Source: an uncultured Candidatus Saccharibacteria bacterium (GTDB lineage Bacteria > Patescibacteriota > Minisyncoccia > Phycocordibacterales > JAKFXT01). Taken from it: a DNA stretch of 64,000 nt. The DNA lies in the NCBI GenBank assembly GCA_964385825.1, contig CAYLPX010000004.1, positions 4,986-68,985 of the forward strand, given 5' to 3'. Each line of letters starts with the position of its first letter. The first letter of the stretch is position 1. Under the pieces are notes generated by a model. The model was not told the origin of the DNA. It searched no databases and saw nothing but the letters and a program-made list of their open reading frames with translations. The translations under genes and the position numbers were made by a program. Positions 7,350 through 54,013 of this stretch are shown here, piece by piece.

Positions 7350-7353
7350 AGAA

Positions 7354-32388: not shown

Positions 32389-32545
32389 AGATACAAAGTA
32401 AGTAACTTATAGTAACAATACAACACCTATTTGTTTTATAAAAGGAAACCAACCCCTCTTTGAAAGAGCCAATTTTTGGTGTAAAGTGGCCAAGTAAATT
32501 ACGTTTGGAGACATGGTTATATACGCCACGTCTCCGATGAAATAC

Positions 32546-32633
32546 GGAGACGTGGCTGAGTGGTCGAAAGCACCTCACTGCTAACGAGGCGTCCCTTTAA
32601 AGGACCGTGGGTTCGAATCCCACCGTCTCCGCA
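32546..32633 (+). tRNA. tRNA-Ser (anticodon GCU), long variable arm
   Basis: GGAGACG TG GCTGAGTGGTCGAAAGC A CCTCA CTGCTAA CGAGG CGTCCCTTTAAAGGACC GTGGG TTCGAAT CCCAC CGTCTCC G. Type-II variable arm. CCA not encoded. Confidence 0.85.
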
Positions 32634-34341
32634 AACTTGGAATATCTACCGCAAAAGGTAGATATTCTGCTTTATTAGAGCCATCATTTTTAGGTTCGAA
32701 CGCTTTTGTCGTGTTCGGGTATCTCACTGCTATCGCTGCGTAGAGATCGAGCGGATTCCTCAAGGAAATACTCAACTTTTTATCTTTTAGGATTATGTTC
32801 GATCGCGATAGTGATGCGAAGATGTCTCGCTTCTGTTCAGGAGCACCTTCTTCAAACCACAATCGTGCTGCTGTGGCGAAACTGAATGAGTTCTCGGCCC
32901 AGTCCACCCACTCGTCGATCTTGCGTCCGGTATTTTGCCGTGAAGCCTCAATCGCATGCTTTTCATCCATAAGCACTTTTCGTTGTGGCGTGTATTCCTC
33001 AAGAGATAGCAAAGACTGATCTGCGTTTTCCGGTGATGTGTAGAGTCGTGTGAGATTTTGGAGTTGCTGCACGATATCCTTGTAGCGCTTTTCCTGCACG
33101 TCGATTGTTACGTTTTGGTTTTTGATTTGCTGATCGTTATCTTTTGCAAGTTCTTCCAATGCCCATTTCGTAAATGCGCTAGAGAGTTCTATTTTTGAGA
33201 GAGCGGAATCGAGAAGAAATTCAAGATCTTCGGCTCGGACCGATGTTTGCGTACACTTTGGATTTTTACGCTTTGTACAGTGATAATAAACATAATGTAG
33301 CGTGGTTGGATTCACCATATCCGCGATCTTTCTTTTACACTTGGGGCAGGCGTCTTTATTTGGAGAGGCGAACTTATGTTTGCATGAATCACAGATGATC
33401 TGATGTTTTTCTTCTGCTGTAACCATTGAGCCGCATTCGCCGCACTCCGTTCTGCCTGTGAATGGAAAGAAGTGACCGTTGCGAGGGTGTGCTTTTCCTT
33501 TGCGACCCAGTTTCTGCTGTATAAGTTCAAATTGATCCATCGTGATCATCGGCTCATGCGCTCCTTTCACCAATTCCTTCTCACCGGTGTCATGATTCCG
33601 TGCCTCAAAGTATCCAGTGTAAAAGGGTTCGGTAAGTAAGCGATAGATGCCCGCCATGGATACTATTTTGCCGCCTTGCCGTTTTGTTTGCCGCGTTCGC
33701 AAGCCCCACTTCTTCGCTTGAAGATAGAGTTGTCGCACCGAATAGTGCCCGGCAAGATATTCCTCGAAGATCCGCTTCACTAGATCAAATCGCTCGGGAT
33801 CTGGAACGATTGTTTTCTCTCCCTTGAGAGTGTGGATATTGTTGAGATAGCCGATCGGTGCAACTCCATTTCTCCACCCTTGCAGCGTTTTTGCACGGAG
33901 TCCTCTCTTCACGTTCGTGCTCAAATCGCGGATGTACTGATTTGCCATGCCGAACTCGAGCGAGGCAAGAAGCACGTTGTCCTCCGGATAGTAATCGCGT
34001 TCGACTGTTTTGATGTGTTGGATGATACCTTTTTGAAGCATCCAACTTATGCGTCCGGCATCAACCGGATTGCGGGCGAGACGATCCATCTTCCAACAGA
34101 TAATGCCTCGCGCTTCACCTTTCTCGATCCGATCGAGTACGTCATTGAAGACCTTTCGTCCCGGGGCCTTCGCTGACATTGACTCAAAAAGAGGTTCACC
34201 GACTATCTTCAGATTGAGTCGCTTTGCTAGTTTTTTGAGTTCATCAATCTGCGAAGACAAACTCAAAACCTGCCGATCCTCGTCCTCCGTGGACTTTCGG
34301 CAGTAGATGAAGTATTTCAGATTTGGATTTGCTGTTTTCAT
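32581..34341 (-). CDS. large serine recombinase (homolog of the island 1 recombinase); ORF overlaps ~50 nt of tRNA-Ser
   Basis: YCRKSTEDEDRQVLSLSSQ, IICWKMDRLARNPVDAGRISWMLQKGI, a CGECGS zinc ribbon, and a second Cys cluster CDSCKHKF...CPKCKRK. 586 aa. Confidence 0.85.
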   Translation of the reverse strand: MKTANPNLKYFIYCRKSTEDEDRQVLSLSSQIDELKKLAKRLNLKIVGEPLFESMSAKAPGRKVFNDVLDRIEKGEARGIICWKMDRLARNPVDAGRISWMLQKGIIQHIKTVERDYYPEDNVLLASLEFGMANQYIRDLSTNVKRGLRAKTLQGWRNGVAPIGYLNNIHTLKGEKTIVPDPERFDLVKRIFEEYLAGHYSVRQLYLQAKKWGLRTRQTKRQGGKIVSMAGIYRLLTEPFYTGYFEARNHDTGEKELVKGAHEPMITMDQFELIQQKLGRKGKAHPRNGHFFPFTGRTECGECGSMVTAEEKHQIICDSCKHKFASPNKDACPKCKRKIADMVNPTTLHYVYYHCTKRKNPKCTQTSVRAEDLEFLLDSALSKIELSSAFTKWALEELAKDNDQQIKNQNVTIDVQEKRYKDIVQQLQNLTRLYTSPENADQSLLSLEEYTPQRKVLMDEKHAIEASRQNTGRKIDEWVDWAENSFSFATAARLWFEEGAPEQKRDIFASLSRSNIILKDKKLSISLRNPLDLYAAIAVRYPNTTKAFEPKNDGSNKAEYLPFAVDIPSLRRRWDSNPRSFKGTPR

Positions 34342-34667
34342 ACTTTTGTTTCGTTATCGTTATCAGGTAAATAGTCCGGAGAAGTCCAGAAATCTCCAGA
34401 TCGCATATCTTTTCGGATCTTGCGAATCATTGTCGACATTTCTGCAACGCTCTGCGTTTTCGACACATTATGCCCACTTTTCATTTTCCGATTTGGGAAC
34501 AAAATTGCCATTTTTTGTTCATATTCAAGGTTATTTTGCTCTCGCTCCTTCTTCAAGAGTAAAACCGCCTTATCTCCCAATCGGGAGATGGTCATTCCTC
34601 TTTCCGACATCTCCTTTAGGATCGCGTGCGACTCCCTGCTTATGCGTATTTGGACGGTATCTCTCAT
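34338..34667 (-). CDS. ribbon-helix-helix (CopG/Arc-like) DNA-binding protein; translationally coupled to the recombinase
   Basis: N-terminal TVQIRISRESHAILKEMSERGMT beta-strand plus two helices. A 4-nt overlap with the recombinase start. Confidence 0.5.
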   Translation of the reverse strand: MRDTVQIRISRESHAILKEMSERGMTISRLGDKAVLLLKKEREQNNLEYEQKMAILFPNRKMKSGHNVSKTQSVAEMSTMIRKIRKDMRSGDFWTSPDYLPDNDNETKV

Positions 34668-35200
34668 GTTTTTTGGCTTTTATTGATAGAAAACTTATTT
34701 GCTAAATCCTTGCTAGCGGCGCTTATATCGAAGTTTTGGGCGCGCCGCATTGTTTGTAAAACAAAATCTCTGGAAGTATTCTCATTGGTACTCTCTGTAA
34801 TAGAATGCTCGCCTGTGCAAGCCAGTTTGTTAGATTCGACAGAATGATTTGCTCGACCCGTTTCAAGGCATGCTAGAAGCCGGATGATTATGATTTTGAA
34901 GTGGCGTTTTTGTGGGATCCCTCGTTTCTCAACCACGAGCACACCCAACTCTTTCCATCGTCTTATTGCTCGATCTTGTTCGCTTCGGGTAAGGGAGGTT
35001 TCTTCCTGTATTTCGGCGATTGTTTTGTAAATCCAGTCCGGTTTACGTCCTTTGCCCCACCAGTAGAGAAGTTGCGACAGAAAGAGTCCTGCTCCTGCAC
35101 TTTTCGCAATCCGCGCTAATGCAGGATTGAAAGCAATCGGTCTTTCCGAGATATGTTCGATCAAAGCGGAGTTATAGTTTTTGCTTACTTTTTTGGACAT
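34664..35200 (-). CDS. winged-helix DNA-binding protein (DnaD/replisome-organizer-like); possible element replication or regulatory factor
   Basis: KTIAEIQEETSLTRSEQDRAIRRWKELGVLVVEKRG wHTH. 178 aa. Confidence 0.35.
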   Translation of the reverse strand: MSKKVSKNYNSALIEHISERPIAFNPALARIAKSAGAGLFLSQLLYWWGKGRKPDWIYKTIAEIQEETSLTRSEQDRAIRRWKELGVLVVEKRGIPQKRHFKIIIIRLLACLETGRANHSVESNKLACTGEHSITESTNENTSRDFVLQTMRRAQNFDISAASKDLANKFSINKSQKT

Positions 35201-35388
35201 GGTTTCTTTTGCTCTTTGAGCATCTCGAGATATCGGGGGAGCATACGCTTCGGCATCGGCTGCATCACGATCCGAGCCAAGTTCAAAAACCGCTGCGCCT
35301 GTTCCGACGCTTCATCGAAGGTGAGATCCGTGCCGAACTCGGCCTTGTAGATCTCGCGGTATTTTTCGATGGCTTGAGGTGAGAGCAT
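35185..35388 (-). CDS. small hypothetical protein, homolog of island 1 gene 9501..9701
   Basis: See 9501..9701. The start is placed at the internal Met (MLSPQAIEKY). Confidence 0.45.
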   Translation of the reverse strand: MLSPQAIEKYREIYKAEFGTDLTFDEASEQAQRFLNLARIVMQPMPKRMLPRYLEMLKEQKKPCPKK

Positions 35389-35525
35389 GTAAAACGAAAT
35401 CTGCACACTCACGGGGGTGAAATGTGCAGATTCCGTCCCCCGTGAACTGATTGATTCCGTACACTGATTGTCTGAAAAGTCTGGGGTGCTTGGTATCGCT
35501 AGTTTGTAGAAACACAAAATAAAAA

Positions 35526-35545
35526 AGCCCGCATTTGCGGGAGAG
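35526..35545. terminator. rho-independent terminator
   Basis: GCCCGCA-TT-TGCGGGA stem with an A-run on the plus strand (a T-run for minus-strand transcripts from 35592..36152). Confidence 0.6.
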
Positions 35546-35591
35546 AATTGATCGCGAAAAAAGTTATCCCCTAGCAGGAACTAGCGATGAA

Positions 35592-36152
35592 CTATCCGAC
35601 TGTAGGATTTCTCAAAATGACACCTTTTCCTTCGAGAATCTCAATCAGTTTTTCACCTGTCGGAACGGTCTTTGGTAGATCTGAATATCGATAGATATCG
35701 CGAATCATGTTTTGTATCCTTTTTATTCCTTGATCAGGCATATCCTTTGCCTTTACACCATGTGCTTGTAGGTGTCGTTCTATTTTTGTGTAAGGCGCAT
35801 ACCCAAGTCCCACATCTTGAGAACGGAAAATTGCGTGGAATGTTTTTGCGTAAATTGCGTCATTATTTTGGAAAGTAACGGGATTGCCGTTGTATTCGAA
35901 TATGCCATCGTTTCTCTGTATGAGTAATTGATGTGATTTTTTTCGAATCAAACCTATTTTCTTTTCTTCATCTTGCCTGATTTTATCCATTCGAACATTG
36001 AACCGCATTGCTGTTCCGGCTGGATCTGTTAGGTCGAACCAAGGTGATTTATTTTTCTTATTCCCCCGTGATTTCATGGGTATATTATGCGCGTTTTTTC
36101 TGTGATTTGAAACTTCCAATGGCGTCGCGATTGCGGTATTATTGAAAGACAA
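35592..36152 (-). CDS. hypothetical protein (186 aa)
   Basis: No motif recognised. Confidence 0.4.
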   Translation of the reverse strand: MSFNNTAIATPLEVSNHRKNAHNIPMKSRGNKKNKSPWFDLTDPAGTAMRFNVRMDKIRQDEEKKIGLIRKKSHQLLIQRNDGIFEYNGNPVTFQNNDAIYAKTFHAIFRSQDVGLGYAPYTKIERHLQAHGVKAKDMPDQGIKRIQNMIRDIYRYSDLPKTVPTGEKLIEILEGKGVILRNPTVG

Positions 36153-36360
36153 CTGAATAGCCCGTGAGGGCAGGACCTAACCCATCAAGAACAACTTGGC
36201 GGCACGGTCTAGTTAGTCGATCAAGCATAAAAAACCCGTCATGGGGTTGCTTGATCGCCGTATGGGGAAACCTGTACGAGAGGGTTCGCCCTCTACCCGT
36301 GGCGGGCTTTTTGTGTCTCGCTACAGGTTTTATCAGGTTGATCAGCGATCAAGCCAACCT

Positions 36361-36780
36361 ATGAAAACAAAACATGATGTCATTTTGCCCGGACGCGGGA
36401 TTTACTGGATTATCGGCTCCATTGTCGGAGTCTGCGCCCTACTCGCGTTTACGGGCCTAGTTTTGGTGAACACGCCCGATTCTCGAGATGGATATGTTCA
36501 GCCATCAGAGTCGAAGACGACCATAACGCCTGATCGTCAGCAGGAAGCGGTTAGAGCGATGGCAGATTTTATGGTGAAAGATAATAACGTGATCGGCCTT
36601 CGAATGTGGGCACGATCGCTTGGAATATCAAGCCCGGAGTTTTCAAGTACAGCAACCCTCCGTGAGGAGATTAGGCGTGCTTCAAGCGACTTTATGATTT
36701 ATCGCGACAAGAACGAGATGCTGCGTCTTGTTGAATTGTTAGGTAGTGATGCTGCTACTCTCAACGAAGTTGTTCGCTAG
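36361..36780 (+). CDS. hypothetical membrane-anchored protein
   Basis: One TM helix after MKTKHDVILPGRGIYWIIGSIVGVCALLAF. Confidence 0.4.
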   Translation: MKTKHDVILPGRGIYWIIGSIVGVCALLAFTGLVLVNTPDSRDGYVQPSESKTTITPDRQQEAVRAMADFMVKDNNVIGLRMWARSLGISSPEFSSTATLREEIRRASSDFMIYRDKNEMLRLVELLGSDAATLNEVVR

Positions 36781-39257
36781 CCAATCTTTGTGCGGATGCG
36801 GCGCTCCTCGTCTCCTTGCGGTACGAGTTCGAACTCAAAGTTCTCATTCAATTTCACGGTGGTTGTTTTTACTTTCACCTGCTCGATACTGCCTTTCATT
36901 GCTGTCATGCGATTGAGCACAGCGTCTTTGTACTCCGTATCTTCGTTACCCGCGAGTTGTTCTCCTTTGCTTTCGATAACGTACACAAACTCGAGTTCGT
37001 CTTTTTCATTTTTTCTTGCAATTACGAAGTCTGGGCGGATCTTGTTTCTTTGCCATCCTTGAATTGAGTACCAACCTTTTTGTGTTTTATTTCGTGCCCA
37101 CCAGATCACATTCGGACTCTGTTCGATGATCTTTGCGACGGTATGTTCGAGTGTGTTCATCGAGGCAATCTCGACGTCTTCATAGAGATTGAAAGAGAAT
37201 GCTGCTTGCACAGTGTTTGCAACAATATCTTTTTGCGGCATTTCGAAGCCGATTACATCATCATCAGACACAACAAGTATGAGAGTGTTACTTTTGACAA
37301 GATCTTCGAAGATCCCTTGTTCTTGTTTTCGTTTATGCTCGAGGAGGTGGCGCTCAAGTTCGCGAGCAACATATCCTGCATTTTGATCAAGGAGTTCTGG
37401 AGAGAACTTTTTGCCGAGAGTATCAGCAGCGATAGCGGCAATCGAGTGTGAGATAAAAGCATTGTCGATTGTTTCTGAAATACGGCGCGTTAGATAGAGT
37501 GTGTCGAACTTGAGTGATGCGAGAGATTCTGTCTGTCGTGCCACGCCCTTACCTTCAAGATCGATCACAATCTCAAGAGGATTTTCGCGTCGTTCTCCGA
37601 TCGTCGGCATGAGATCCTCGAGCCACTTGTTCAAGAGTTTACTAACGTCCCATGAGATCTTCGGCTTGATGTCGATATCGTATGAGAACTTACGATACTT
37701 GCGGGGGCCGTCTTTGATGAGCCATACGGGAAGGAAGAGTGACTCCGGGTATTTCTTACGGATATCTTTTTTGATTGAAACCACCTTCACAGGATTTACG
37801 ACGTTTCCTTGATGGTCGCGTATTTCGATACCCATCGATACATCGCCGAGTCCTTCGTCCTCAAATCCTTTTTTCACATTCTCGACGACTTCCTGCGTGT
37901 GTCCGGTGGCAAAGAAGACATAACTCTCGTCGAGATCTGCGACGCCGGTTTTCTTTGCGTAAGGTTGGCGGAGTACACGGCCAACGAGTTGTGTCATCGA
38001 TGAGTTTGTTCGAGCGTTCGGGATCACTCCGAGAATGTATGCGAATGAACAATCCCAACCTTCTTTGAGTGCTTCTTTCGTAATGATGTAGCGGATCTCG
38101 CTTTCGCGTGAGAGAAGTTTTTGCTGCTTTATTTCATCGATCGAACTCGATTTGACAGCGATCTCATGTTTTGGAACACCGAGATCGATCAAAAGTTCAC
38201 GGACATCTTCACTGTGAACGAGTCCTTGTCCGCGTTGATCTTTGCCCGTGCGCTCGACTTGAATGAGTGCGATCGGACGGATATAGGTGCCGTTATTTTG
38301 CTCAAGTTTCTTTGCCTTCTTTTGGAGATCATCGCGCTTTGTTTTGATTGCACCGATCATAGTGCGCCAATCCCCGGAGTGGATCGGGGGGATGAGGTGC
38401 ATATCAAGTTTGATCATATCCTCGGCCTTCAAGTCCTTTCCGGTAACGGTCGAAAGGATGTTCATACCACGTTTTGGGGTAGCAGAGAGGCCCATGATTG
38501 CCGTTGCGTTGAGGCCGTCGAGAGTAGACCGGGCAATATCCGTCCACATCGTGTGGAACTCGTCCACAATGATAAAAGGGTTGAGTGTGCGTATTACGTT
38601 GCCCAGAGAGGTTTTTACGAGGGTACGATCGAAAAGAGAGTCCTCGGTGCGGTCGAGATTCGGGACAAGTTTCAAAAGTTCGGCATGGAGGTCGTACCTG
38701 TTCTCCGGTGGAAAGAAATCCATATAGCCGCCACTATCTTCGAAGATCTTGTTTGTATCGCGTGTAGCCGACTGGATCATGAGCATGAGGACGACAAGGT
38801 TTTCTTGTACATCTTGCTGCCGGAGTGATTGACCCTTTTCGATGATAAGTGTGCGATTGCCGCTCGCTTGATCGAGGAGTTGTCGGTATGGATGACTTTT
38901 ATTTTGGAGATTCTCGATCGTTTGTCGGTAAATCTGATCGCGGTGTGTAATCCAAACCACAAGCCCGGTGCGTTTCTTTGCGAGAAGGTTTTGATATGAG
39001 CGGATTGCTTCGATAGCGACGAGCGTCTTTCCACCGCCGGTTGGCATTTTGATACACACGCGCGGATAGAGTCCATTAGCACCAGTTTTTGGACGATCTT
39101 GAAACTGTTCGTATTTCCCAACAAAGGCGACGTTGATCGGACTACCGAGCACTGATTGTAGATCCGGACTCGCGGCAAACTTTTGACGCGCAGAATCAAT
39201 GTCGCTGAAGAACGATTCGATATCACGCACTACACGTTGTTGATAGTTCTTGAGCAT
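36777..39257 (-). CDS. res: Type III restriction enzyme Res subunit (SF2 helicase-nuclease)
   Basis: Motif I MPTGGGKT and motif II VDEFH. 826 aa. Immediately downstream of the mod gene. Confidence 0.8.
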   Translation of the reverse strand: MLKNYQQRVVRDIESFFSDIDSARQKFAASPDLQSVLGSPINVAFVGKYEQFQDRPKTGANGLYPRVCIKMPTGGGKTLVAIEAIRSYQNLLAKKRTGLVVWITHRDQIYRQTIENLQNKSHPYRQLLDQASGNRTLIIEKGQSLRQQDVQENLVVLMLMIQSATRDTNKIFEDSGGYMDFFPPENRYDLHAELLKLVPNLDRTEDSLFDRTLVKTSLGNVIRTLNPFIIVDEFHTMWTDIARSTLDGLNATAIMGLSATPKRGMNILSTVTGKDLKAEDMIKLDMHLIPPIHSGDWRTMIGAIKTKRDDLQKKAKKLEQNNGTYIRPIALIQVERTGKDQRGQGLVHSEDVRELLIDLGVPKHEIAVKSSSIDEIKQQKLLSRESEIRYIITKEALKEGWDCSFAYILGVIPNARTNSSMTQLVGRVLRQPYAKKTGVADLDESYVFFATGHTQEVVENVKKGFEDEGLGDVSMGIEIRDHQGNVVNPVKVVSIKKDIRKKYPESLFLPVWLIKDGPRKYRKFSYDIDIKPKISWDVSKLLNKWLEDLMPTIGERRENPLEIVIDLEGKGVARQTESLASLKFDTLYLTRRISETIDNAFISHSIAAIAADTLGKKFSPELLDQNAGYVARELERHLLEHKRKQEQGIFEDLVKSNTLILVVSDDDVIGFEMPQKDIVANTVQAAFSFNLYEDVEIASMNTLEHTVAKIIEQSPNVIWWARNKTQKGWYSIQGWQRNKIRPDFVIARKNEKDELEFVYVIESKGEQLAGNEDTEYKDAVLNRMTAMKGSIEQVKVKTTTVKLNENFEFELVPQGDEERRIRTKIG

Positions 39258-39260
39258 GGT

Positions 39261-40871
39261 TTATGCAGTTCTCTCAAAGAGGTTATAGGGAATGCTCACG
39301 AACTTGATGTTGTATTGCTCGAGCGCTTCATCGTCCAAGAAACATGCCGGGGCATAGACGATCTTTTTCCCGGAATCTTTCTTATGCACTTTCTGTGCCC
39401 AGTCGAGAGTGATCGCTAGTTTTTTCAACTTCTCCGTGTCCTTTTCGTAAATGAGATAGATCGATTCACGATCTGCTGCACCAACGAACGAATCATCTTC
39501 CTTGATCTTTGATTCTGCCGGATGATTTTTGCCGGTTGCTAGGTAGTAGACGTACTTTGCAAACTCTTTGTATGTTGGGAGTTTGCCGGAGAGTATTGTT
39601 TCTGCATCGATTGCGGGGCCAAGTTTTGAGTAAGTGAATCCTGCTTTGTAAGAGTATTTCTTTGCGGCACGGCGAATCCGTTCTGCTGTTATTTCTTGAG
39701 CGTACTCCTCCATTTCAACAAGGATGAACTTCCTATCTCCTTGATCGGCTTTGTTGAGGTCGAGTACAGCGTGTGCTGTTGTTCCTGATCCTGCGAACGA
39801 GTCGAGGATGATTGAATCCTTGTCAGAAACAATCTCAATGAGGTGTCTTACGAGTTCTACCGGCTTCGGGTTGTCGAATATCTCTTGCTCGCCAAACAAA
39901 TCGGCGAGTTCGTCACCTGCTGATTTTGTTGTTCCGGCATCTTCCAAAACTAAAAGGAGTGGCTGTGCCGATTCTGTATCTTTGTCTTCAAAATCATAGA
40001 TCTTTCTTTTCACGACTCCTTCGTCGATAACAAGACGGCCTTTCGCTTCAAGATCTCGAGCGAGATCTTCACCGATCTGCCATCGCTTACCTTCACGAGG
40101 TTTTTGCCCCAAAATCTCAAATCGCATTGATTCTCTCCGGTATGAACCTGCGTTCTTTTTCTCAATGATTGCGAGGCGGTATTTACCCTCTGCATCGCTC
40201 AATGGATAACTGCGAGTTGTTGCGTACCTTACACGCGGCTTGATTCTGCCTTCCGGAGTTTTTGAGTAGCAAAGTGTGTAGTCAGTCAGACTGCTTACTT
40301 GTGCTCCCTCTACGTTTGTTGATGTTGACTTCTTTTTCCACTGAAAATCACCAATAAAGTTTTCTTCTTTGAAAATCTCATCCATCAATGAACGGGCATG
40401 GTGGACTTCGTTCGCATCAATGCTCACAAAAATCAAACCGTCAGATGCAAGCAATTCTCGCAAGAGTTTGAGTCGAGGTGTCATCATGCACAACCATTTA
40501 TCATGTCGTGAAAGATCGTCTTTTCCGACTGCCTTACCGATCCACTCTTGTATAGTTGGGCTGCTTACATTATCGCTGTATACCCACTCCTCGTTTCCAG
40601 TGTTGTAGGGAGGATCGATGTAGATACACTTTATTTTTCCTTGATACTTCGGCAGCAAACTCTTGAGTGCGAGGAGGTTGTCGCCTTCAATGATGAGGTT
40701 CTCGTCGGCATTATCGCCTTTGAGCGAGAGTTTGGCGTCCTTTTCTAGTGTATGATATGGCACCGAAAGGTGGTGGTTCCAGACTGCCGATTTTCCTTTG
40801 AAGTTTAGTGATGCCATATTGTTATTTGTTTTTTGCTTTGTTGATAAATTGTTCAAACTCACTACGCTCAA
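39261..40871 (-). CDS. mod: Type III R-M Mod subunit, N6-adenine (or N4-cytosine) DNA methyltransferase
   Basis: IYIDPPYNTG catalytic motif IV, FAGSGTT AdoMet motif I. 536 aa. Confidence 0.85.
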   Translation of the reverse strand: MSVVSLNNLSTKQKTNNNMASLNFKGKSAVWNHHLSVPYHTLEKDAKLSLKGDNADENLIIEGDNLLALKSLLPKYQGKIKCIYIDPPYNTGNEEWVYSDNVSSPTIQEWIGKAVGKDDLSRHDKWLCMMTPRLKLLRELLASDGLIFVSIDANEVHHARSLMDEIFKEENFIGDFQWKKKSTSTNVEGAQVSSLTDYTLCYSKTPEGRIKPRVRYATTRSYPLSDAEGKYRLAIIEKKNAGSYRRESMRFEILGQKPREGKRWQIGEDLARDLEAKGRLVIDEGVVKRKIYDFEDKDTESAQPLLLVLEDAGTTKSAGDELADLFGEQEIFDNPKPVELVRHLIEIVSDKDSIILDSFAGSGTTAHAVLDLNKADQGDRKFILVEMEEYAQEITAERIRRAAKKYSYKAGFTYSKLGPAIDAETILSGKLPTYKEFAKYVYYLATGKNHPAESKIKEDDSFVGAADRESIYLIYEKDTEKLKKLAITLDWAQKVHKKDSGKKIVYAPACFLDDEALEQYNIKFVSIPYNLFERTA

Positions 40872-41007
40872 TCCGGAACTCTTTGCCGATCTTGAACGCC
40901 TTGAGCCGTTTCGCCTTGATGTATCGGTAGATCGTCATGATGTTCACCGATAACATCTCCGCTAACTCTTTAGCGGTGTAATAGGGTTTGTCATTTTGCA
41001 TGGCCAT
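40822..41007 (-). CDS. excisionase-family / MerR-like HTH DNA-binding protein
   Basis: YYTAKELAEMLSVNIMTIYRYIKAKRLKAFKIGKEFRI. 61 aa. Confidence 0.65.
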   Translation of the reverse strand: MAMQNDKPYYTAKELAEMLSVNIMTIYRYIKAKRLKAFKIGKEFRIERSEFEQFINKAKNK

Positions 41008-41458
41008 TTTGATGTTTCTTGATATCTGCGGGCTTGTACCAAATCACTTTGCCGTTGTCATCGACTGAAAAAATGTGCAGGCATACTGCTACTGCAAACG
41101 CATACGGGATACGACGTATCGCGATATCAGCACTTTTTTTCGGAAGTGCGATACCGAAATAGTAACGTGCCTTCAAACTTTTCATTCGGGTAACTATCTG
41201 CCCGAGGGAATAGACGAAGGCAACCTCAAAACCCGATCGATAACTTGATGCACCTTTTGCTTCTATGAAAAAAGTCCGGCTGTATTGCGAGTTCGTTACC
41301 TTGATGTCGACCCCCGGCATTCGGAGGTCGTCATAGGTAAGGTTCTTGCTCCAACCGAGGTTCGCAAGATGCCGGATCACGGCCCGCTTCACAAACTCCT
41401 CGGATATGATTTTTGCCTTCACAGCCATGCTTTTATGATACTTTACTTTTGTTGACAT
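40991..41458 (-). CDS. PD-(D/E)xK nuclease-fold-like hypothetical protein
   Basis: PGVD...FFIEAKG (D...E-x-K) arrangement. 155 aa. First gene of the overlapping operon with xis, mod and res. Confidence 0.35.
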   Translation of the reverse strand: MSTKVKYHKSMAVKAKIISEEFVKRAVIRHLANLGWSKNLTYDDLRMPGVDIKVTNSQYSRTFFIEAKGASSYRSGFEVAFVYSLGQIVTRMKSLKARYYFGIALPKKSADIAIRRIPYAFAVAVCLHIFSVDDNGKVIWYKPADIKKHQNGHAK

Positions 41459-41496
41459 TACAATCCACAGAGGAGTACAATCAGGATGAAGAAACT

Positions 41497-43359
41497 ATGA
41501 AATACGTCGCTTTCAGTATCAAGAACTACAAAGGCATCGAGAAACTCGAACTCGATCTTTCAGGCAGCCAAAAGATCTTCACTCTAGTCGGACTAAACGA
41601 GAGTGGTAAAACTACCATTCTCGAAGCGTTGGATTTCTTTCAGGGGGATTTTGCAGATGGAGAGGAGCACACGATCATCCCCAAAAGTAAAAAGGGCAAC
41701 TTCAACGATTCTGTGTCAGTAACGGCCACCATTGAGGTTGATGCGGAGGACGAGAAGTCGATCAGGGAGGCAGCAAAGAAAGCAAACTTCAAGATAAAGG
41801 AAGGATACTTCCCGAAGACCATAAAAATCGAAAAGCGTTACGTTTTTGCTAGATCCAGTTTTGATACCACGAAACCCACTTCCTACTGGACGCTTGGAAT
41901 TGTGGGTGTAGATAAAGGAAAGAAGAAGGAGAAAAACGTGGACGGAGAAGCACTGAAGGCCATCATAAAACACATCCGTGAAAATTTACTCCCACCAATC
42001 ATCTACTATCCGAACTTTCTAACAAAGTTTCCACGGAGGATCTATCTTCAAGCGCAACCGAATGAAGATGACGAGCAGAGTTTTTATCGTGAGGTATTGC
42101 AAGATATTCTCGATTCACTCGAACAGGGCCTGAACATCGAGGAGCATATCGTCGCTCGTATCCATAGCACCGCGGAGCAAGATAAGGCATCGCTTGATGT
42201 CGTACTAAACAAGGTGGCCGCGAAGATCACCACGACTGTTTTCAAAGAGTGGGAGGAGTTGTTCGCATCACGGGGTAAAAAGATCGTAATTGAGAAAGGA
42301 AAAGAGAGGATCACTGAAACGGACTACCCCTATATCGATATCAAACTGGAGGAAGGATCTGATGTTTATTTTATTGCGGAGCGAAGTTTGGGATTCACTT
42401 GGTTCTTCTCTTTCCTGCTTTTCACAGAGTTCAGAAAGAACCGAGTGAAAGATCGCGGTGAGATTCTCTTCCTTATCGATGAACCGGCGTCGAACCTCCA
42501 CTCGACGGCGCAGTCAAAGTTACTTGGCACGTTTGATCGTATCGTTTCAAAAAGTAAATTGCTCTACACCACTCATAGCCACCACCTCATCAACTCCGCA
42601 CTACTCGAAGGTGCATACATTGTGAAAAATAAAGCCGTCGACTACGAAGAAACATCACTTGATTTTGATGCGCAGAAAACCGATATCACAGCGACTCCGT
42701 ACAAACAATTTGCGGCCGAGCATCCAGATCAACACACTTATTTTCAGCCGATTCTCGATACCCTTGAGTACCAGCCGAGCAACCTCGAACTAGTGCCAGA
42801 GATAGTAGTCGTGGAAGGAAAAAATGATTTTTACACTTTCAAATACATTCACGATTTCATATTGAGTGAGGAGAGCCGTAGTAAACTCAATCTACATTTT
42901 TATCCCGGAAACGGGGCCGGACAGAACGATCGCGTGATACGCCTATACACCGCATGGGGCAGAAAGTTTGCAGTGCTTATTGACGGAGACAAGGCCGGAC
43001 GAACTGCAAAAGCAAAATACATAGAGGAGATAGGAGTGTTCATGGAGAAGCGATGCCTACCACTGAACGACATCGATACTAAATGGAAGGATCAAAGCAC
43101 AGAAGACTTGTTCACTGATGCGGAGCGATTGAGAATCATAAAAACTGTATTCCCGAAGGAAACGAAATACACGAAAGGCCATTTCAATGAAGCCATTCAG
43201 AGTTTGATCGGGAGCCGGACCGTGGTATCGATAAATGAGGGTACGATCAAGAAGTTTGAAAAGGTATTCGCAAAAGCGCGAGAGGCACTTGATGTGGTCG
43301 ATCATGTGGCTCAAACAGTGGAGAAATCAGGGAACGCTTCCCAAGCGCCCACTGTATGA
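41497..43359 (+). CDS. OLD-family ATP-dependent endonuclease (ABC-type ATPase fused to Toprim), class-1-like
   Basis: Walker A GLNESGKTT, ABC signature/Walker B region ILFLIDEPASNLH, C-terminal Toprim (IVVVEGKNDF...LIDGDKAG). Transcribed divergently from the R-M operon. Confidence 0.7.
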   Translation: MKYVAFSIKNYKGIEKLELDLSGSQKIFTLVGLNESGKTTILEALDFFQGDFADGEEHTIIPKSKKGNFNDSVSVTATIEVDAEDEKSIREAAKKANFKIKEGYFPKTIKIEKRYVFARSSFDTTKPTSYWTLGIVGVDKGKKKEKNVDGEALKAIIKHIRENLLPPIIYYPNFLTKFPRRIYLQAQPNEDDEQSFYREVLQDILDSLEQGLNIEEHIVARIHSTAEQDKASLDVVLNKVAAKITTTVFKEWEELFASRGKKIVIEKGKERITETDYPYIDIKLEEGSDVYFIAERSLGFTWFFSFLLFTEFRKNRVKDRGEILFLIDEPASNLHSTAQSKLLGTFDRIVSKSKLLYTTHSHHLINSALLEGAYIVKNKAVDYEETSLDFDAQKTDITATPYKQFAAEHPDQHTYFQPILDTLEYQPSNLELVPEIVVVEGKNDFYTFKYIHDFILSEESRSKLNLHFYPGNGAGQNDRVIRLYTAWGRKFAVLIDGDKAGRTAKAKYIEEIGVFMEKRCLPLNDIDTKWKDQSTEDLFTDAERLRIIKTVFPKETKYTKGHFNEAIQSLIGSRTVVSINEGTIKKFEKVFAKAREALDVVDHVAQTVEKSGNASQAPTV

Positions 43360-43417
43360 AAGTAAGTTCTAACAGCATCTAACTCTCGCCGCAAAGTCTT
43401 GAGTGAAGCAAAAGCTT

Positions 43418-43466
43418 TGCGGAGACGAGGGATATGCATAAGCATATTCCGTGTGGGATTCGAAAG
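43418..43466 (-). pseudogene. fragment of tRNA-Ser 3' half (T-loop, T-stem and acceptor) with a 23-25 nt hairpin insertion, inverted relative to the intact tRNA-Ser
   Basis: Minus strand is TTCGAATCCCAC[ACGGAATATGCTTATGCATATCCCT]CGTCTCCGCAAAG. Two exact 12-nt matches to tRNA-Ser (TTCGAATCCCAC and CGTCTCCGCAAA) are in the correct order. The insertion contains the inverted repeat ATATGC-TTAT-GCATAT. Confidence 0.6.
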
Positions 43467-43562
43467 ACGGAGCTCGCAAAGGCGAGCGAGTCGGGGTCGC
43501 GGAAAATTTCACCGGAAATTTATCTGTGACCGACCCCCCCATCGTCCCCACCCGCCACACAA

Positions 43563-43593
43563 CCCCTCTTTTTTTATATACTGTAGCCATGAA
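43563..43593 (+). repeat. 31-bp perfect direct repeat, copy 1 (contains the start codon of 43589..43981)
   Basis: CCCCTCTTTTTTTATATACTGTAGCCATGAA is identical to 43995-44025. Confidence 0.9.
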
Positions 43594-43981
43594 ACTTACA
43601 CTTAATAAAAAGACACCGGTAAAAATTGCAACTTTTAAAAGAATTAAAACACTTTCTAAGCCAACAAAATCTTACATGCTGGGGACTATTTCTCTGTCAC
43701 CCGCAAAGATTATAGAAAACTTTGGCAAACCAACCTCATTGTTACCAGATACTTTCGGTGAGTTTATTTTTCTTTCCTCTGACAAAAAAACTATTTTCAC
43801 GATTTATGATTATAAAAGCAAAGAAGTGAACAAGCCCTCATCAAACCCCTGGACTAAAACACGGTCTCAAGAATTCTATTTTGGAGGAAAGAAAACATCA
43901 AAAACTGCAGTCAATATAGAAGCTTTTGTAAGTTTTTTAGCCTCACTTAGTATAAAAGCAACTGTCAAAACTAATTTTTAA
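43589..43981 (+). CDS. hypothetical protein (130 aa), flanked by the 31-bp direct repeats
   Basis: Lys-rich. No motif recognised. Confidence 0.4.
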   Translation: MKLTLNKKTPVKIATFKRIKTLSKPTKSYMLGTISLSPAKIIENFGKPTSLLPDTFGEFIFLSSDKKTIFTIYDYKSKEVNKPSSNPWTKTRSQEFYFGGKKTSKTAVNIEAFVSFLASLSIKATVKTNF

Positions 43982-43994
43982 CTAGGCGACAGTT

Positions 43995-44025
43995 CCCCTC
44001 TTTTTTTATATACTGTAGCCATGAA
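43995..44025 (+). repeat. 31-bp perfect direct repeat, copy 2 (contains the start codon of 44021..44266)
   Basis: Identical to 43563-43593. Confidence 0.9.
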
Positions 44026-46994: not shown

Positions 46995-47067
46995 GCGGGT
47001 ATAGCTCAGTTGGTAGAGCAGGCGTCTTATACACGCCCGGTCCTTGGTTCGAGTCCAAGTACCCGCA
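46995..47067 (+). tRNA. tRNA with UAU anticodon (predicted tRNA-Ile, rare isoacceptor)
   Basis: GCGGGTA TA GCTC AGTTGGT AGAGC A GGCGT CTTATAC ACGCC CGGTC CTTGG TTCGAGT CCAAG TACCCGC A. The anticodon loop is CU-UAU-AC. CCA not encoded. Confidence 0.65.
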
Positions 47068-47214
47068 CAAAGGATTTATCATCCATATACATAGACACCG
47101 AAGTCTCTAGTCAAATCCAGTACATACGATGCATAATTCTGTATTACTACTAATTAAATAGACCTCAATCAAACCTCGAGTAATAAAGTAGAGTTATTTT
47201 TAAATTTAAAAAAT

Positions 47215-48714: not shown

Positions 48715-48765
48715 ATAACTTAAAATTAAATTTCAAAATTTCTTGCAAATTTTTCAATAAAAAAA

Positions 48766-48787
48766 GAGGGGGATTGCTCCCCCTCAC
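48766..48787. terminator. rho-independent terminator for the GC-rich minus-strand gene
   Basis: GAGGGGG-ATTGC-TCCCCCTC stem with a run of 7 A on the plus strand (a T-run on the minus strand), immediately downstream of the 48801..49403 stop. Confidence 0.7.
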
Positions 48788-48800
48788 TTGTCGCGCCCGG

Positions 48801-49403
48801 CTATTCACCAGCCGAAGCGCTTTTCATCGGCGGCCAGACGTTGGTCTCGACGACTTCGTAGGTCTGGACCGGCCCGAACCGCGACACGCACTTGCCGGGC
48901 CGCTTCAGTTCCGGCACATACCAGCAGGTAACCGGGCCGCGGTCGTAGCCGTTGTCGAAGTTCACGACGACCTTCATGGCCGAGAACTTGCCGATGGACA
49001 GCACGACTTCCTCGACGCCCACAACCTCGGTTGCAACCTTGAGCTTCCCGGAAGCAGACCCGCGGTAGAACATCACCTCGTCGTTCTTCCACTTGTTCCC
49101 CGCAACGAGGGGGAACCGGAAGTACGGAATGTACGGGGAATACTGGGTGAAACTTTGCCCAGCCGCCCCCTTCATTTCCGCAGTGTTGGAAACGGGGTTC
49201 CATTCATTCGTGAGCACGTGACGATACCCGCCGTAGAGGATGTCGATCTTGGAGTCGTTGACCCCAGTCACCACGACCTCCTTGAAGGAATCGCCGACCT
49301 TGATTTTCCAGGCGTCACCCACCTGCACTTCAGGCCGGTTGAAATCTGCGGCCATTGCCACCCCCCCGACAAGGAGGAGCGCCAAAACAAAGCTCTTGAA
49401 CAT
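48801..49403 (-). CDS. secreted protein of unknown function encoded by a strongly GC-rich (~60%+) insert in an AT-rich region
   Basis: Signal peptide MFKSFVLALLLVGGVAMAADF. GC3-rich codons (GCC, GGC, CCG). The flanks return abruptly to AT-rich sequence. Confidence 0.6.
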   Translation of the reverse strand: MFKSFVLALLLVGGVAMAADFNRPEVQVGDAWKIKVGDSFKEVVVTGVNDSKIDILYGGYRHVLTNEWNPVSNTAEMKGAAGQSFTQYSPYIPYFRFPLVAGNKWKNDEVMFYRGSASGKLKVATEVVGVEEVVLSIGKFSAMKVVVNFDNGYDRGPVTCWYVPELKRPGKCVSRFGPVQTYEVVETNVWPPMKSASAGE

Positions 49404-49536
49404 GTCAATCTCCCTCCCCACTTAAGGGGTTAATACTACATTGAACTCCAACTTAAAGTATACATATATTTATAAAAAAAGCAAGTCCATGTGAATAAAG
49501 ATTGCGAAGCTTTACACCCTAAGATATCATGGATGC

Positions 49537-52532: not shown

Positions 52533-52541
52533 ACAAATAAC

Positions 52542-53624: not shown

Positions 53625-53664
53625 AAATCAATTAAAATACTAAGGAACTAATTATCGCAAAATA

Positions 53665-53913: not shown

Positions 53914-54013
53914 ATTCTTTACTTATTGAACTCATTTTACACCTCGACTCTTGTAAAAACAAGACCACTAATGTTGATAACAAAAAAACGGGTGACTTAA
54001 ATACTGTGCTAAT

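What the first reader, a model, noticed from the sequence alone, without database searches (positions are those of the whole stretch)
32546..43466. Island 2: tRNA-Ser-targeting serine-recombinase element carrying a Type III R-M system and a divergent OLD-family nuclease
An ~11-kb block with visibly higher GC than its flanks sits precisely at the 3' end of tRNA-Ser(GCU). It begins with a large serine recombinase whose ORF reads into the tRNA. It carries: (i) a four-gene, translationally overlapping operon of a PD-(D/E)xK-like protein, an Xis-like HTH, Mod and Res; (ii) a divergent single-polypeptide ABC-ATPase+Toprim (OLD-family) nuclease; (iii) several unknown small genes, an RHH and a winged-helix protein. 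Combining two defense modules with unknown genes on a mobile element in a reduced-genome lineage makes the unknown genes prime candidates for new defense or anti-defense functions.
Basis: partly seen in the sequence, partly recalled or inferred. Interest (0 to 1): 0.8.

Follow-up and report, generated by a model that had tools for sequence, protein, structure and literature searches.

The report
Defence island with self-splitting recombinase gene
A 10.8-kb mobile element sits exactly at the 3' end of a tRNA-Ser gene in a Patescibacteria genome; it carries a Type III restriction system and an OLD-type nuclease, and its serine recombinase gene spans its own attachment site, so integration swaps the enzyme's last 25 residues.

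Summary
The island is real and mobile. I refine it to 32633-43392, bounded by a shared CCGC core at the tRNA-Ser 3' end (attL) and at 43389-43392 (attR). The same element occurs at 82% nucleotide identity in a host whose PilM is only 41% identical. Relatives insert at tRNA-Trp or another tRNA-Ser and carry different cargo, but share a backbone and a conserved ~65-nt far terminus.

Type III Mod/Res, the HTH_17 protein, the PD-(D/E)xK protein (p155) and the ABC-ATPase+Toprim OLD-like protein are confirmed. The GC contrast is weak; tetranucleotide usage is strongly deviant.

The "unknown small genes" are not cargo. They form the conserved backbone, which also holds a LOOT RNA (Rfam RF03000).

The main new result is that attP lies inside the recombinase ORF. 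The far terminus (43311-43388, minus strand) encodes, in frame, the conserved C-terminal 25 residues. These are contiguous in 70 of the 120 best-scoring relatives. Differences between elements fall mostly at third codon positions. In the integrated state the tail is replaced by 15 residues of antisense tRNA.

Gene-splitting integrases were reported only for archaeal tyrosine recombinases, and tRNA targeting by serine integrases was essentially undescribed. What the tail swap does is inferred, not shown.

The parts
32546..32632 (+). Host tRNA-Ser(GCU), the integration target. The whole gene is host DNA.
   Evidence: ARAGORN and Rfam tRNA, 59.7 bits. Element homology with L034 (tRNA-Trp) and L035 (a different tRNA-Ser) stops exactly at the tRNA 3' end.
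32629..32632 (+). attL core CCGC (tRNA positions ~71-74: end of the acceptor stem, discriminator, first C). The crossover lies within it.
   Evidence: [quoted passage not shown]
32633..43392 (.). The integrated element (10,760 bp).
   Evidence: Left end. Right end from the end of L114 homology at 43394 and from the conserved terminus shared with L034, L035 and L036. Tetranucleotide correlation with the rest of the window is 0.19.
32581..34341 (-). Large serine recombinase, integrated form (586 aa). Residues 1-571 are element-encoded; residues 572-586 (RRWDSNPRSFKGTPR) are encoded by antisense tRNA.
   Evidence: Pfam Resolvase 2.7e-18, Recombinase 3.3e-13, Zn_ribbon_recom 2.8e-6. PHROG 95 integrase 6.7e-71. 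Tail analysis.
34338..34667 (-). p109, a possible ribbon-helix-helix protein whose stop overlaps the recombinase start by 4 nt. Backbone gene.
   Evidence: No HMM hit. ORFs of the same size and position occur in L034 (112 aa) and L035 (82 aa). The RHH assignment is an inference from the sequence pattern only.
34664..35200 (-). p178, similar to the N-terminal domain of replication initiators (O-like / DnaD-like).
   Evidence: PHROG 9773 'replication initiation O-like' 1.2e-25 and PHROG 6493 DnaD-like 1.7e-12. L034 has a 61%-identical homologue.
35185..35388 (-). p67, a small conserved partner of this recombinase family. Candidate directionality factor or regulator.
   Evidence: tblastn hits just upstream of the recombinase gene on the same strand in about 30 of 80 related loci. 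Sequence. No family match.
35592..36152 (-). p186, a backbone protein of unknown function.
   Evidence: 46% identical in L035/L036; only an N-terminal remnant in L034. No HMM hit.
36174..36294 (+). LOOT RNA (Rfam RF03000), about 65 nt upstream of the probable p179 start.
   Evidence: 69.7 bits against a gathering score of 46.4, full length 1-121. Same position in L034 (71.3 bits) and L035 (74 bits).
36361..36780 (+). p179, a membrane-anchored protein (the ORF as listed starts at 36241; the probable start is 36361). Hypervariable between co-occurring strains.
   Evidence: A hydrophobic (putative transmembrane) segment is visible in the sequence. 70-74% identical in L034/L114 and 43% in L035. 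187 differences fall in 36250-37000 between the window and L003, which are otherwise about 99-100% identical.
36777..39257 (-). Type III restriction subunit Res (826 aa).
   Evidence: PADLOC REase_III 1.2e-132 over residues 64-786 and Pfam ResIII 1e-15. A C-terminal PDF...ESK motif is visible in the sequence.
39261..40817 (-). Type III methyltransferase Mod (518 aa from the ATG at 40817).
   Evidence: PADLOC MTase_III 1e-136 full length and Pfam N6_N4_Mtase 1.4e-36. 96% identical in L114 but 54% in L035.
40822..41007 (-). HTH_17 (MerR/Xis-type) DNA-binding protein, travelling with the R-M genes.
   Evidence: Pfam HTH_17 5.2e-15. PHROG 66 'excisionase and transcriptional regulator' 5.7e-11. 90-93% identical in L035 and L114.
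40991..41458 (-). p155, a small PD-(D/E)xK nuclease-fold protein associated with R-M systems.
41497..43359 (+). OLD-like ABC-ATPase + Toprim protein (620 aa), a single-gene cargo.
43311..43388 (-). Displaced 3' exon of the recombinase gene (RELDAVRTYFHTVGAWEAFPDFSTV*), which is also the P arm of attP. It overlaps the last 49 nt of the OLD ORF antisense.
   Evidence: In frame with ...VDIPSLR once the element is circularised. Conserved in L034, L035, L036 and L114 whatever the cargo. Differences fall mostly at third codon positions. Aligns without gaps with the contiguous C-terminus of P0208, 21/34 identical.
43389..43392 (+). attR core CCGC.

Best explanation
This is an integrative mobile element of Patescibacteria. 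A large serine recombinase (LSR) recombined a site inside its own 3' coding region (attP) with the last four bases (CCGC) of a host tRNA-Ser(GCU) gene.

Shown:
- The element spans 32633-43392.
- The tRNA is entirely host DNA.
- The element has a conserved backbone: LSR, an RHH-like protein, a replication-initiator-like protein, a 67-aa LSR-associated protein, p186, LOOT RNA and p179.
- It has an exchangeable cargo bay. Here that holds a p155-HTH-Mod-Res Type III restriction operon and a single-gene OLD-like ATPase-Toprim nuclease.
- It has a conserved far terminus.
- Integration splits the LSR gene. The free form encodes a 596-aa protein ending in ...LRRELDAVRTYFHTVGAWEAFPDFSTV. The integrated form encodes 586 aa, with the last 25 residues replaced by 15 residues read from antisense tRNA.

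Inferred:
- The enzyme recognises the universal geometry of tRNA 3' ends. The T-loop motif TTCGAAC lies 11 nt from the core in the tRNA arm and 16 nt from it in the attP arm. This is the 5-bp shift described for zinc-ribbon-domain motifs of serine integrases, and it would explain why close relatives use different tRNAs.
- The tail swap distinguishes the integrating from the resident form of the enzyme, possibly limiting excision or re-integration.
- The cargo protects the host and element against phages through methylation-dependent restriction (Mod/Res, perhaps tuned by the HTH protein and p155) and ATP-dependent Toprim nuclease activity (OLD).
For: Domains.

Left boundary: three related elements at three different tRNAs lose homology exactly at ...AAGTTT|GCGG.

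Right boundary: L114 carries the same R-M + p155 + OLD block at 82% nucleotide identity (proteins 87-96%), in a host whose PilM is 41% and ComF 31% identical. Homology ends at 43394. The ~65-nt terminus is also present in L034 (Type II R-M cargo) and in L035/L036 (Type III R-M plus MBL-fold cargo, no OLD).

Split gene:
- The in-frame tail is present at the far end of all five elements.
- Differences by codon position are 0,0,5 / 1,1,6 / 3,2,8.
- Of the 120 best-scoring family representatives, 70 have a contiguous ...L(D/N)xVRT(Y/W)... tail, 22 have a tRNA-antisense tail, and many of the rest stop right after ...LRR.
- The junction peptide aligns without gaps to P0208.
- L099, only 41% identical, has its tail exon 8.7 kb upstream on the same strand.

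tRNA targeting: in 27 of 80 loci a tRNA (Ser, Trp, Asn, Leu, Ala or Gln) lies antisense over the LSR 3' end.

attP motif: GAYATTCC-N3-TTTGCGG-N16-TT(C/A)GAAC is found in the reconstructed window attP and in the intact L120 attP. The 5-bp shift precedent is in PMC3783163.

Intact-tail relatives sit among plasmid-type genes (Replic_Relax, DUF87/TrwB-like) and defence genes.

Composition.
Against: No excised circle and no empty attB was found for this lineage. Every contig from the same population (nine or more samples) carries the island. One variant has a frameshifted LSR (L006).

The relatives used as 'empty sites' are distant (RecG 56-62% identical) and carry tRNA-Ser in the opposite orientation, so an exact empty-site comparison is missing.

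The P and P' arms show no obvious dyad symmetry, and the 5-nt shift rests on two attP sequences.

No function of the 25-residue tail is known. It may be dispensable.

Confidence: 0.8

Rival explanations
1. The island is a fixed, decaying remnant. It integrated once, can no longer excise because the recombinase gene was truncated, and is now simply a chromosomal defence locus.
For: All contigs from the same population carry it and no empty site was seen. One population variant has a 2-bp frameshift in the LSR (L006). The integrated LSR lacks its native tail.
Against: The LSR ORF is otherwise intact and identical in other samples. The displaced tail exon keeps its frame, its stop codon and a third-position substitution bias. 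The same element reached a distant host. This rival concerns present-day activity and is compatible with the origin described above.
Confidence: 0.3
2. The conserved far terminus is only a DNA site (the P arm of attP). The apparent 25-codon 'exon' is a by-product, and the functional recombinase ends at the junction.
For: LSR attP arms are protein-binding DNA and would be conserved anyway. Many integrated relatives stop 1-3 codons after the junction, so a tail-less enzyme exists in the resident state.
Against: Conservation extends about 65-78 nt, more than a 25-bp half-site, and ends at the stop codon. Substitutions concentrate at third codon positions, including in L034 and L035 where no OLD gene overlaps. 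The tail motif VRT(Y/W)...FPxF is conserved as protein in relatives only 45-55% identical.
Confidence: 0.1
3. The small unknown genes (p109, p67, p186, p179) are new defence or anti-defence cargo.
For: They have no family match. p179 is hypervariable between strains, as expected for a protein under conflict. Defence islands do accumulate unknown systems.
Against: They are retained in the same order next to the LSR in elements with unrelated cargo (L034, L035). p67 accompanies the LSR in about 30 loci. None matches PADLOC.
Confidence: 0.12
4. p155 and the HTH_17 protein are excision-control factors for the recombinase (XisH-like plus Xis-like) rather than parts of the restriction operon.
Confidence: 0.1
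5. The OLD-like gene is not part of the element. It is a neighbouring host gene or an independent insertion.
For: L035/L036 carry the same R-M block without OLD. OLD is transcribed divergently from the R-M operon.
Against: The conserved element terminus lies beyond OLD and overlaps its last 49 nt. L114 has R-M and OLD together at 82% nucleotide identity in another host. Only 38 bp separate the p155 and OLD starts. OLD is best seen as exchangeable cargo inside the element; a 73% homologue is near a different tRNA-Glu-associated LSR in L115.
Confidence: 0.04

Closest known systems
Large serine integrases of phages and integrative elements (phiC31, Bxb1, A118/LI, SPbeta SprA, XisF, SCCmec Ccr)
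   Same: The domain order is the same: Resolvase, Recombinase, zinc ribbon. There is a short crossover core with no long direct repeats. The recombinase gene sits at the element edge. The distal motif lies 5 nt closer to the core in the host arm than in the element arm, as described for LI integrase (PMC3783163).
   Different: The target is the extreme 3' end of tRNA genes. Mageeney et al. 2020 state that tRNA use by serine integrases 'has not been reported previously' and found only 14/297 candidate cases (PMC7192596). attP lies inside the recombinase ORF, so the C-terminal tail changes on integration. NCBIfam scores are far below the cut-offs for XisF and Ccr, so this LSR is not a member of those named subfamilies.
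'Suicidal' SSV1 / pTN3 / pT26-2-type integrases of archaea
   Same: [quoted passage not shown] The target is a tRNA gene (the tRNA target of these archaeal integrases is from my own knowledge, not from a tool result).
   Different: Those are tyrosine recombinases. [quoted passage not shown] Here the enzyme is a bacterial serine recombinase and only the last 25 of 596 residues are displaced, so the resident protein keeps all recognised domains.
Integration-dependent immunity of mycobacteriophages (attP inside the repressor gene; from my own knowledge, not checked here)
   Same: Integration changes the C-terminus of a phage-encoded protein because attP lies in its 3' coding region, giving different protein forms in the free and integrated states.
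   Different: There the affected gene is the repressor and the recombinase is a tyrosine integrase. A degradation-tag mechanism is documented there and is only a hypothesis here.
OLD-family nucleases, class 1 (P2 Old, Thermus/Burkholderia OLD) and Gabija GajA
   Same: An N-terminal ABC/SMC-type ATPase is followed by a C-terminal Toprim domain with invariant E...DxD acidic residues in one polypeptide. The location is a mobile defence island.
   Different: Sequence similarity to solved OLD proteins is limited to the P-loop region. The Toprim domain is below Pfam's threshold. There is no adjacent UvrD/GajB-like helicase, retron or AriB partner. The protein belongs to its own family of >3000 proteins of about 590 aa. 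Activity is untested.
Type III restriction-modification systems (EcoP15I-like)
   Same: Adjacent mod and res genes in that order. Mod is an N6/N4 methyltransferase with a variable central region. Res has helicase motifs and a C-terminal PD...ExK motif.
   Different: The operon is preceded by two extra conserved genes: a small PD-(D/E)xK protein and an HTH_17 protein. These are 90-94% conserved together with Res in three elements.
LOOT RNA motif (Rfam RF03000). From my own memory it comes from the Weinberg et al. 2017 survey of candidate structured RNAs; the main text I could read does not describe it.
   Same: Full-length match above the gathering score in the window, L034 and L035.
   Different: Here it has a defined context, which I could not find described: the backbone of tRNA-targeting LSR elements, about 65 nt upstream of a membrane-protein gene.

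Membership tests
Large serine recombinase (serine integrase) | N-terminal Resolvase catalytic domain with the nucleophilic serine | tested here: met
   Pfam Resolvase 2.7e-18 over residues 11-155. The YCRKSTEDEDRQ motif is present.
Large serine recombinase (serine integrase) | C-terminal Recombinase domain plus zinc-ribbon domain | tested here: met
   Pfam Recombinase 3.3e-13 and Zn_ribbon_recom 2.8e-6, both above their gathering scores.
Large serine recombinase (serine integrase) | Short att sites with a small shared core and no long flanking direct repeats | tested here: met
   The shared core is 4-7 nt (CCGC/CCGCAAA). No repeat of 14 nt or more was found.
Large serine recombinase (serine integrase) | Catalyses attP x attB integration; excision needs a directionality factor | not testable with these tools
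   Needs recombination assays. p67 and p109 are only candidates.
Integrative genetic element / genomic island | An integrase gene plus identifiable attL and attR | tested here: met
Integrative genetic element / genomic island | An uninterrupted attB in a related genome | tested here: inconclusive
   Only distant relatives (RecG 56-62% identical) have tRNA-Ser near RecG without the island, and there the tRNA is in the opposite orientation. No empty site was found in the same population.
Integrative genetic element / genomic island | Evidence of horizontal transfer | tested here: met
   L114 has island proteins 87-96% identical while host PilM is 41% and ComF 31% identical. Tetranucleotide correlation is 0.19.
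Self-splitting ('suicidal') integrases | The recombination site lies within the integrase gene, which is partitioned on integration | tested here: met
Self-splitting ('suicidal') integrases | Tyrosine recombinase of the SSV/pTN3/pT26-2 superfamily, archaeal host | tested here: not met
   The domains are those of a serine recombinase and the host is Patescibacteria. It therefore works like these integrases in one respect but is not a member.
Self-splitting ('suicidal') integrases | The split leaves an inactive enzyme | not testable with these tools
   Only 25 of 596 residues are displaced and all Pfam domains are retained.
Type III restriction-modification | Mod: an N6/N4 DNA methyltransferase matching Type III models | tested here: met
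   PADLOC MTase_III 1e-136 over 19-531 of 536. Pfam N6_N4_Mtase 1.4e-36.
Type III restriction-modification | Res: a helicase-motif ATPase with an endonuclease motif, adjacent to and downstream of mod | tested here: met
   PADLOC REase_III 1.2e-132 and Pfam ResIII. A 3-nt gap separates mod from res.
OLD-family nuclease | N-terminal ABC-type ATPase (AAA_15/AAA_21) | tested here: met
OLD-family nuclease | C-terminal Toprim domain with conserved Glu and DxD | tested here: inconclusive
   E440, D444, D496-x-D498 and E536 are invariant. The model has beta-alpha-beta elements at 435-522. Foldseek aligns about 670-710 columns with GajA and TsOLD. However, Pfam OLD-like_TOPRIM reaches only 9e-4 (20.1 bits against a 23.2 cut-off) and hits 7 of 27 members.
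OLD-family nuclease | Class 1: no partner helicase, retron or AriB gene | tested here: met
   No such gene among the called neighbours in the window, L114 or L115. The gene is called single-gene on this basis.
PD-(D/E)xK nuclease superfamily (p155) | An alpha-beta-beta-beta-alpha-beta core with D...ExK | tested here: met
LOOT RNA (RF03000) | Covariance-model score above Rfam's gathering threshold | tested here: met
   69.7 bits against 46.4, covering model positions 1-121.

The most novel reading that the evidence does not exclude
A large and widespread family of bacterial serine integrases (more than 5600 proteins at E<=1e-30, found in Patescibacteria and several other phyla) carries attP inside its own 3' coding region and recognises the invariant geometry of tRNA 3' ends (CCGC core plus T-loop at a fixed distance).

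Integration would then act as a built-in switch. It replaces a conserved 25-residue C-terminal tail by host-encoded residues, and this distinguishes the integrating from the resident enzyme (control of directionality, stability or expression). The same recognition mode would let close relatives hop between different tRNA genes.

This would be the first self-splitting integrase outside archaeal tyrosine recombinases, and a natural source of serine integrases aimed at universally conserved tRNA sequences.
Probability: 0.35. Interest if true: 0.8.

Novelty: new variant of a known kind. Interest (0 to 1): 0.64.

Why it matters
As a defence island on an integrative element, the finding is ordinary, and the R-M and OLD genes are new members of known kinds. 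The recombination module is what stands out.

- Serine integrases were not known to favour tRNA genes. Here about a third of 80 related loci sit on tRNA 3' ends.
- The integrase gene crosses its own attachment site, a layout reported only for archaeal tyrosine integrases.
- This gives a concrete, testable hypothesis for how such an element tells its free and integrated states apart.
- It also provides predicted attP/attB pairs for enzymes that read sequences conserved in all tRNAs. Serine integrases are widely used for genome engineering, so this may be of practical use.
- It places the orphan LOOT RNA motif in a genetic context, and shows how defence cargo (Type I, II and III R-M, OLD, MBL-fold and pAgo-associated nucleases) is shuffled among reduced-genome bacteria.

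Tried and rejected
1. I searched for a direct repeat of the tRNA 3' end as attR. Nothing of 14 nt or more was found, as expected for a serine recombinase.

2. I first took the inverted copy of the tRNA end at 43412-43434 as attR. This was rejected. Its score equals the maximum seen in shuffled controls, other elements lack such a copy, it lies outside the region conserved between elements, and L114 homology ends earlier.

3. Three Logan contigs break at 32575 and two at about 43996. I considered these as signs of presence/absence polymorphism and rejected that. I attribute the first (by inference, not tested) to the tRNA 5' 31-mer being shared with other tRNA genes. The second falls in the 40-nt repeat at 43554/43986.

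4. Empty site or excised circle in the same population: not found.

5. Close relatives of the LSR in viral contigs: none.

6. Circularity of intact-tail contigs: no terminal overlaps.

7. XisH membership for p155: no Pfam signal and no PDB sequence hit.

9. Rfam search of the host flank at 43300-43700 for a structured RNA: nothing credible.

10. No description of the LOOT motif in the main text of Weinberg et al. 2017, and no supplements are held.

Full report
**1. Observation**

ARAGORN and Rfam place tRNA-Ser(GCU) at 32546-32632 (+). A 586-aa ORF at 32581-34341 (-) has Resolvase, Recombinase and Zn_ribbon_recom domains and overlaps the tRNA antisense by 52 nt.

Downstream on the same strand lie the remaining island genes.
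- Small ORFs come first.
- Res (36777-39257) and Mod (39261-40817) follow. They match PADLOC Type III models almost full length, at 1e-132 and 1e-136.
- An HTH_17 protein (40822-41007) and a 155-aa protein (40991-41458) complete this strand.
- On the other strand is an AAA_15 ATPase with a sub-threshold OLD-like Toprim hit.

The source is a 127-kb Patescibacteria contig.

The GC difference is small: 0.458 in the island against 0.443 and 0.438 in the immediate flanks. Tetranucleotide usage is clearly foreign. Its correlation with the rest of the window is 0.19, against 0.72-0.91 for other 10.8-kb windows.

**2. Boundaries and mobility**

No direct repeat of the tRNA end exists. I therefore used related elements found with the recombinase (566 relatives confirmed, 80 loci kept).

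Left boundary.
- L034 has a 93%-identical recombinase and sits at a tRNA-Trp.
- L035/L036 (84% identical) sit at a different tRNA-Ser.
- Aligned with the window, element homology runs up to ...CCAAGTTT|GCGG. It then follows each host's own tRNA.
- The whole tRNA is therefore host DNA, and the left boundary is 32633.

Right boundary.
- L114 comes from an NCBI MAG whose PilM and ComF are only 41% and 31% identical to the window's.
- It carries p179, Res, Mod, HTH, p155 and OLD at 82% nucleotide identity (74% protein identity for p179, 87-96% for the others).
- Homology stops at 43394.
- The last ~65 nt before that point are also conserved in L034 and L035/L036, whose cargo differs.
- Comparison of attL and attR in these elements leaves CCGC (tRNA sense) as the only block always shared. 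It lies at 32629-32632 and 43389-43392.

The element is thus 32633-43392, or 10,760 bp. It has moved between distant hosts, and OLD lies inside it.

**3. The recombinase gene spans attP**

Read on the minus strand, 43388-43311 encodes RELDAVRTYFHTVGAWEAFPDFSTV*. This is in frame with ...VDIPSLR once the element ends are joined. Several lines of evidence support this as a real coding segment.
- The same peptide is encoded at the far end of L034, L035, L036 and L114.
- Differences between these copies fall mainly at third codon positions: 0,0,5; 1,1,6; 3,2,8. This holds even in elements with no overlapping OLD gene.
- Of the 120 best-scoring representatives of the family, 70 have a contiguous tail with the motif L(D/N)xVRT(Y/W)...FPxF. 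Another 22 have a tail that is a translation of antisense tRNA (...(R/W/Q)(D/E)SN(P/L)R...). Many of the remaining 28 stop one to three codons after ...LRR.
- The reconstructed junction peptide aligns without gaps to the contiguous C-terminus of P0208, with 21 of 34 residues identical.
- L099 is only 41% identical and sits at tRNA-Ser(UGA). Its tail exon lies 8.7 kb upstream on the same strand.

The free element therefore encodes a 596-aa enzyme. The integrated element encodes a 586-aa enzyme whose last 15 residues come from the tRNA.

Relatives with intact tails sit among plasmid-type genes (Replic_Relax, DUF87/TrwB-like) and defence genes. No tRNA was found in the 148 kb of intact-tail loci scanned. 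This fits the unintegrated state, although circularity was not shown.

**4. Target recognition (inference)**

In 27 of 80 loci a tRNA lies antisense over the recombinase 3' end. The tRNAs are Ser with four different anticodons, Trp, Asn, Leu, Ala and Gln.

In recombinase-sense orientation, the reconstructed window attP reads GATATTCC-AAG-TTTGCGG-N16-TTAGAAC. The intact attP of L120 (53% identical) reads GACATTCC-TAC-TTTGCGG-N16-TTCGAAC. The tRNA arm reads GCGG-N11-TTCGAAC, which is the T-loop.

The motif is therefore 5 nt closer to the core in the host arm. This is the arrangement described for the zinc-ribbon-domain motif of LI integrase (PMC3783163).

Every tRNA places its T-loop 12 nt from the discriminator. 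That offers a simple reason why close relatives use different tRNAs. This part is inference from two attP sequences, and the P and P' arms show no obvious symmetry.

**5. Backbone and cargo**

L034 carries two C5 methyltransferases and a restriction enzyme. L035/L036 carry the same p155-HTH-Mod-Res block, with a Mod only 54% identical, plus a membrane protein and an MBL-fold protein in place of OLD.

All of them retain the following genes next to the recombinase.
- An RHH-like ORF.
- The 67-aa protein, which is also found just upstream of the recombinase in about 30 loci.
- p186, though only a 28-residue remnant of it is left in L034.
- p179.

p178 matches replication-initiator/DnaD-like PHROGs at 1.2e-25. 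Rfam finds a full-length LOOT RNA at 36174-36294. It occupies the same position in L034 and L035, about 65 nt before the probable p179 start. These genes are therefore the element's own machinery, not cargo.

**6. Cargo proteins**

p155 belongs to a small family found mostly in Patescibacteria.
- D51 and E66-x-K68 are invariant.
- The model is confident (pLDDT 85.8) and has a PD-(D/E)xK core.
- Pfam gives weak NOV_C and Mrr_cat signals.
- A 47%-identical homologue follows HsdR in a Type I system.

The OLD-like protein belongs to a family of more than 3000 proteins of about 590 aa, conserved over their full length.
- E440, G441, D444, D496-x-D498 and E536 are invariant.
- The model (pLDDT 85.6) aligns over about 670-710 columns with GajA and Thermus OLD in Foldseek.
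- Pfam's Toprim model stays below threshold.
- None of the called neighbouring genes is a helicase, retron or AriB partner.
- A 73% homologue lies near a different recombinase that overlaps tRNA-Glu (L115).

**7. Comparison with what is known**

Mageeney et al. 2020 wrote that tRNA use by a serine integrase had not been reported, and found 14/297 candidates (PMC7192596). [quoted passage not shown] My literature searches found no description of a serine integrase whose ORF spans attP. The library is incomplete, so prior description cannot be excluded.

**8. Limits**

- I found no excised circle and no empty site in the same population.
- One variant has a frameshifted recombinase.
- The orientation of tRNA-Ser plus island is opposite to that in L114 and in distant relatives.
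- The tRNA is flanked by inverted copies of its own ends, which I could not explain.
- The role of the tail swap is a hypothesis.

**9. Verdict**

The island and its defence cargo are confirmed and are of known kinds. The integration module is a new variant. It belongs to a large family of tRNA-3'-end-targeting serine integrases, in which attP lies inside the gene and the C-terminus changes on integration.

Noticed in passing
window 36174-36294 (+); L034 4473-4592; L035 8252-8370: A full-length LOOT RNA (Rfam RF03000, 70-74 bits) is a conserved backbone part of these recombinase elements. It lies about 65 nt upstream of the membrane-protein gene p179. It was absent from 13 more distant intact-tail loci.
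   Followed up: partly
window 36250-37000 and 40750-41460, compared with L003: Two short stretches differ by about 25% and about 6% between co-occurring strains that are otherwise about 99-100% identical. The first covers the LOOT 3' part, p179 and the Res C-terminus; the second covers p155. This suggests recombination or diversifying selection at the backbone/cargo joint. The L114 contig also breaks inside p179.
   Followed up: partly
window 33157-33158 (L006) and 33000-33663 (L005): Population variants of the recombinase gene. One sample has a 2-bp deletion that frameshifts it. Another has a segment about 19% divergent in the middle of the gene.
   Followed up: partly
window 32526-32536, 43420-43434, 43453-43464: The tRNA-Ser gene is flanked by inverted copies of its own 5' and 3' ends, outside the element. 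Other tRNAs in the window and tRNA-Ser in relatives lack this. tRNA-Ser plus island are also inverted relative to the arrangement in L114 and in L023/L024/L026. This may be the trace of an inversion or of an older event. Unexplained.
   Followed up: partly
window 46995-47068 and 47215-55600: tRNA-Ile(UAU) is on the opposite strand compared with five relatives. It is followed by a low-GC stretch (0.33-0.39) with genes for an AMP-binding enzyme, DUF6817, an FAD-binding oxidase and YcaO. This may be another island, with a RiPP-like cluster.
   Followed up: no
window 43554-43593 and 43986-44025: A 40-nt direct repeat (90% identical) ends at the ATG of two consecutive small host genes (p130 and p81). 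It looks like a shared promoter or 5' leader, and it explains the contig breaks in Logan assemblies.
   Followed up: no
L049 10001-11728 and about 16760: A related recombinase ORF is interrupted at the attP core. The sequence after the junction resembles antisense tRNA, but ARAGORN calls no tRNA there. Its conserved tail exon lies about 5 kb downstream on the same strand, as if another DNA segment had been inserted into this element's attP.
   Followed up: no
L115 5931-7476 and 10001-11860: A different large serine recombinase (503 aa, 25% identical) also overlaps a tRNA gene (tRNA-Glu) antisense. About 2.5 kb beyond its 5' end lies a 73%-identical OLD homologue. If both belong to one element (its boundaries were not mapped), tRNA-end targeting and OLD cargo recur in a second recombinase lineage.
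   Followed up: partly
L116-L119 (about 7001-7417): A 47%-identical p155 homologue lies directly after the HsdR gene of a Type I restriction system. Two other family members carry an N-terminal HARE-HTH domain. The p155 family thus appears to be a general accessory of restriction systems in Patescibacteria.
   Followed up: partly
L052, L064, L120, L121: Intact-tail relatives of the recombinase are surrounded by other defence-type genes: a pPIWI-associated nuclease, an OLD-family protein with a clear Toprim hit, an MBL-fold protein, a PD-(D/E)xK/Cas4-like nuclease, a TPR-PIN protein, GmrSD and HsdM. This suggests that the recombinase family commonly carries defence cargo.
   Followed up: partly
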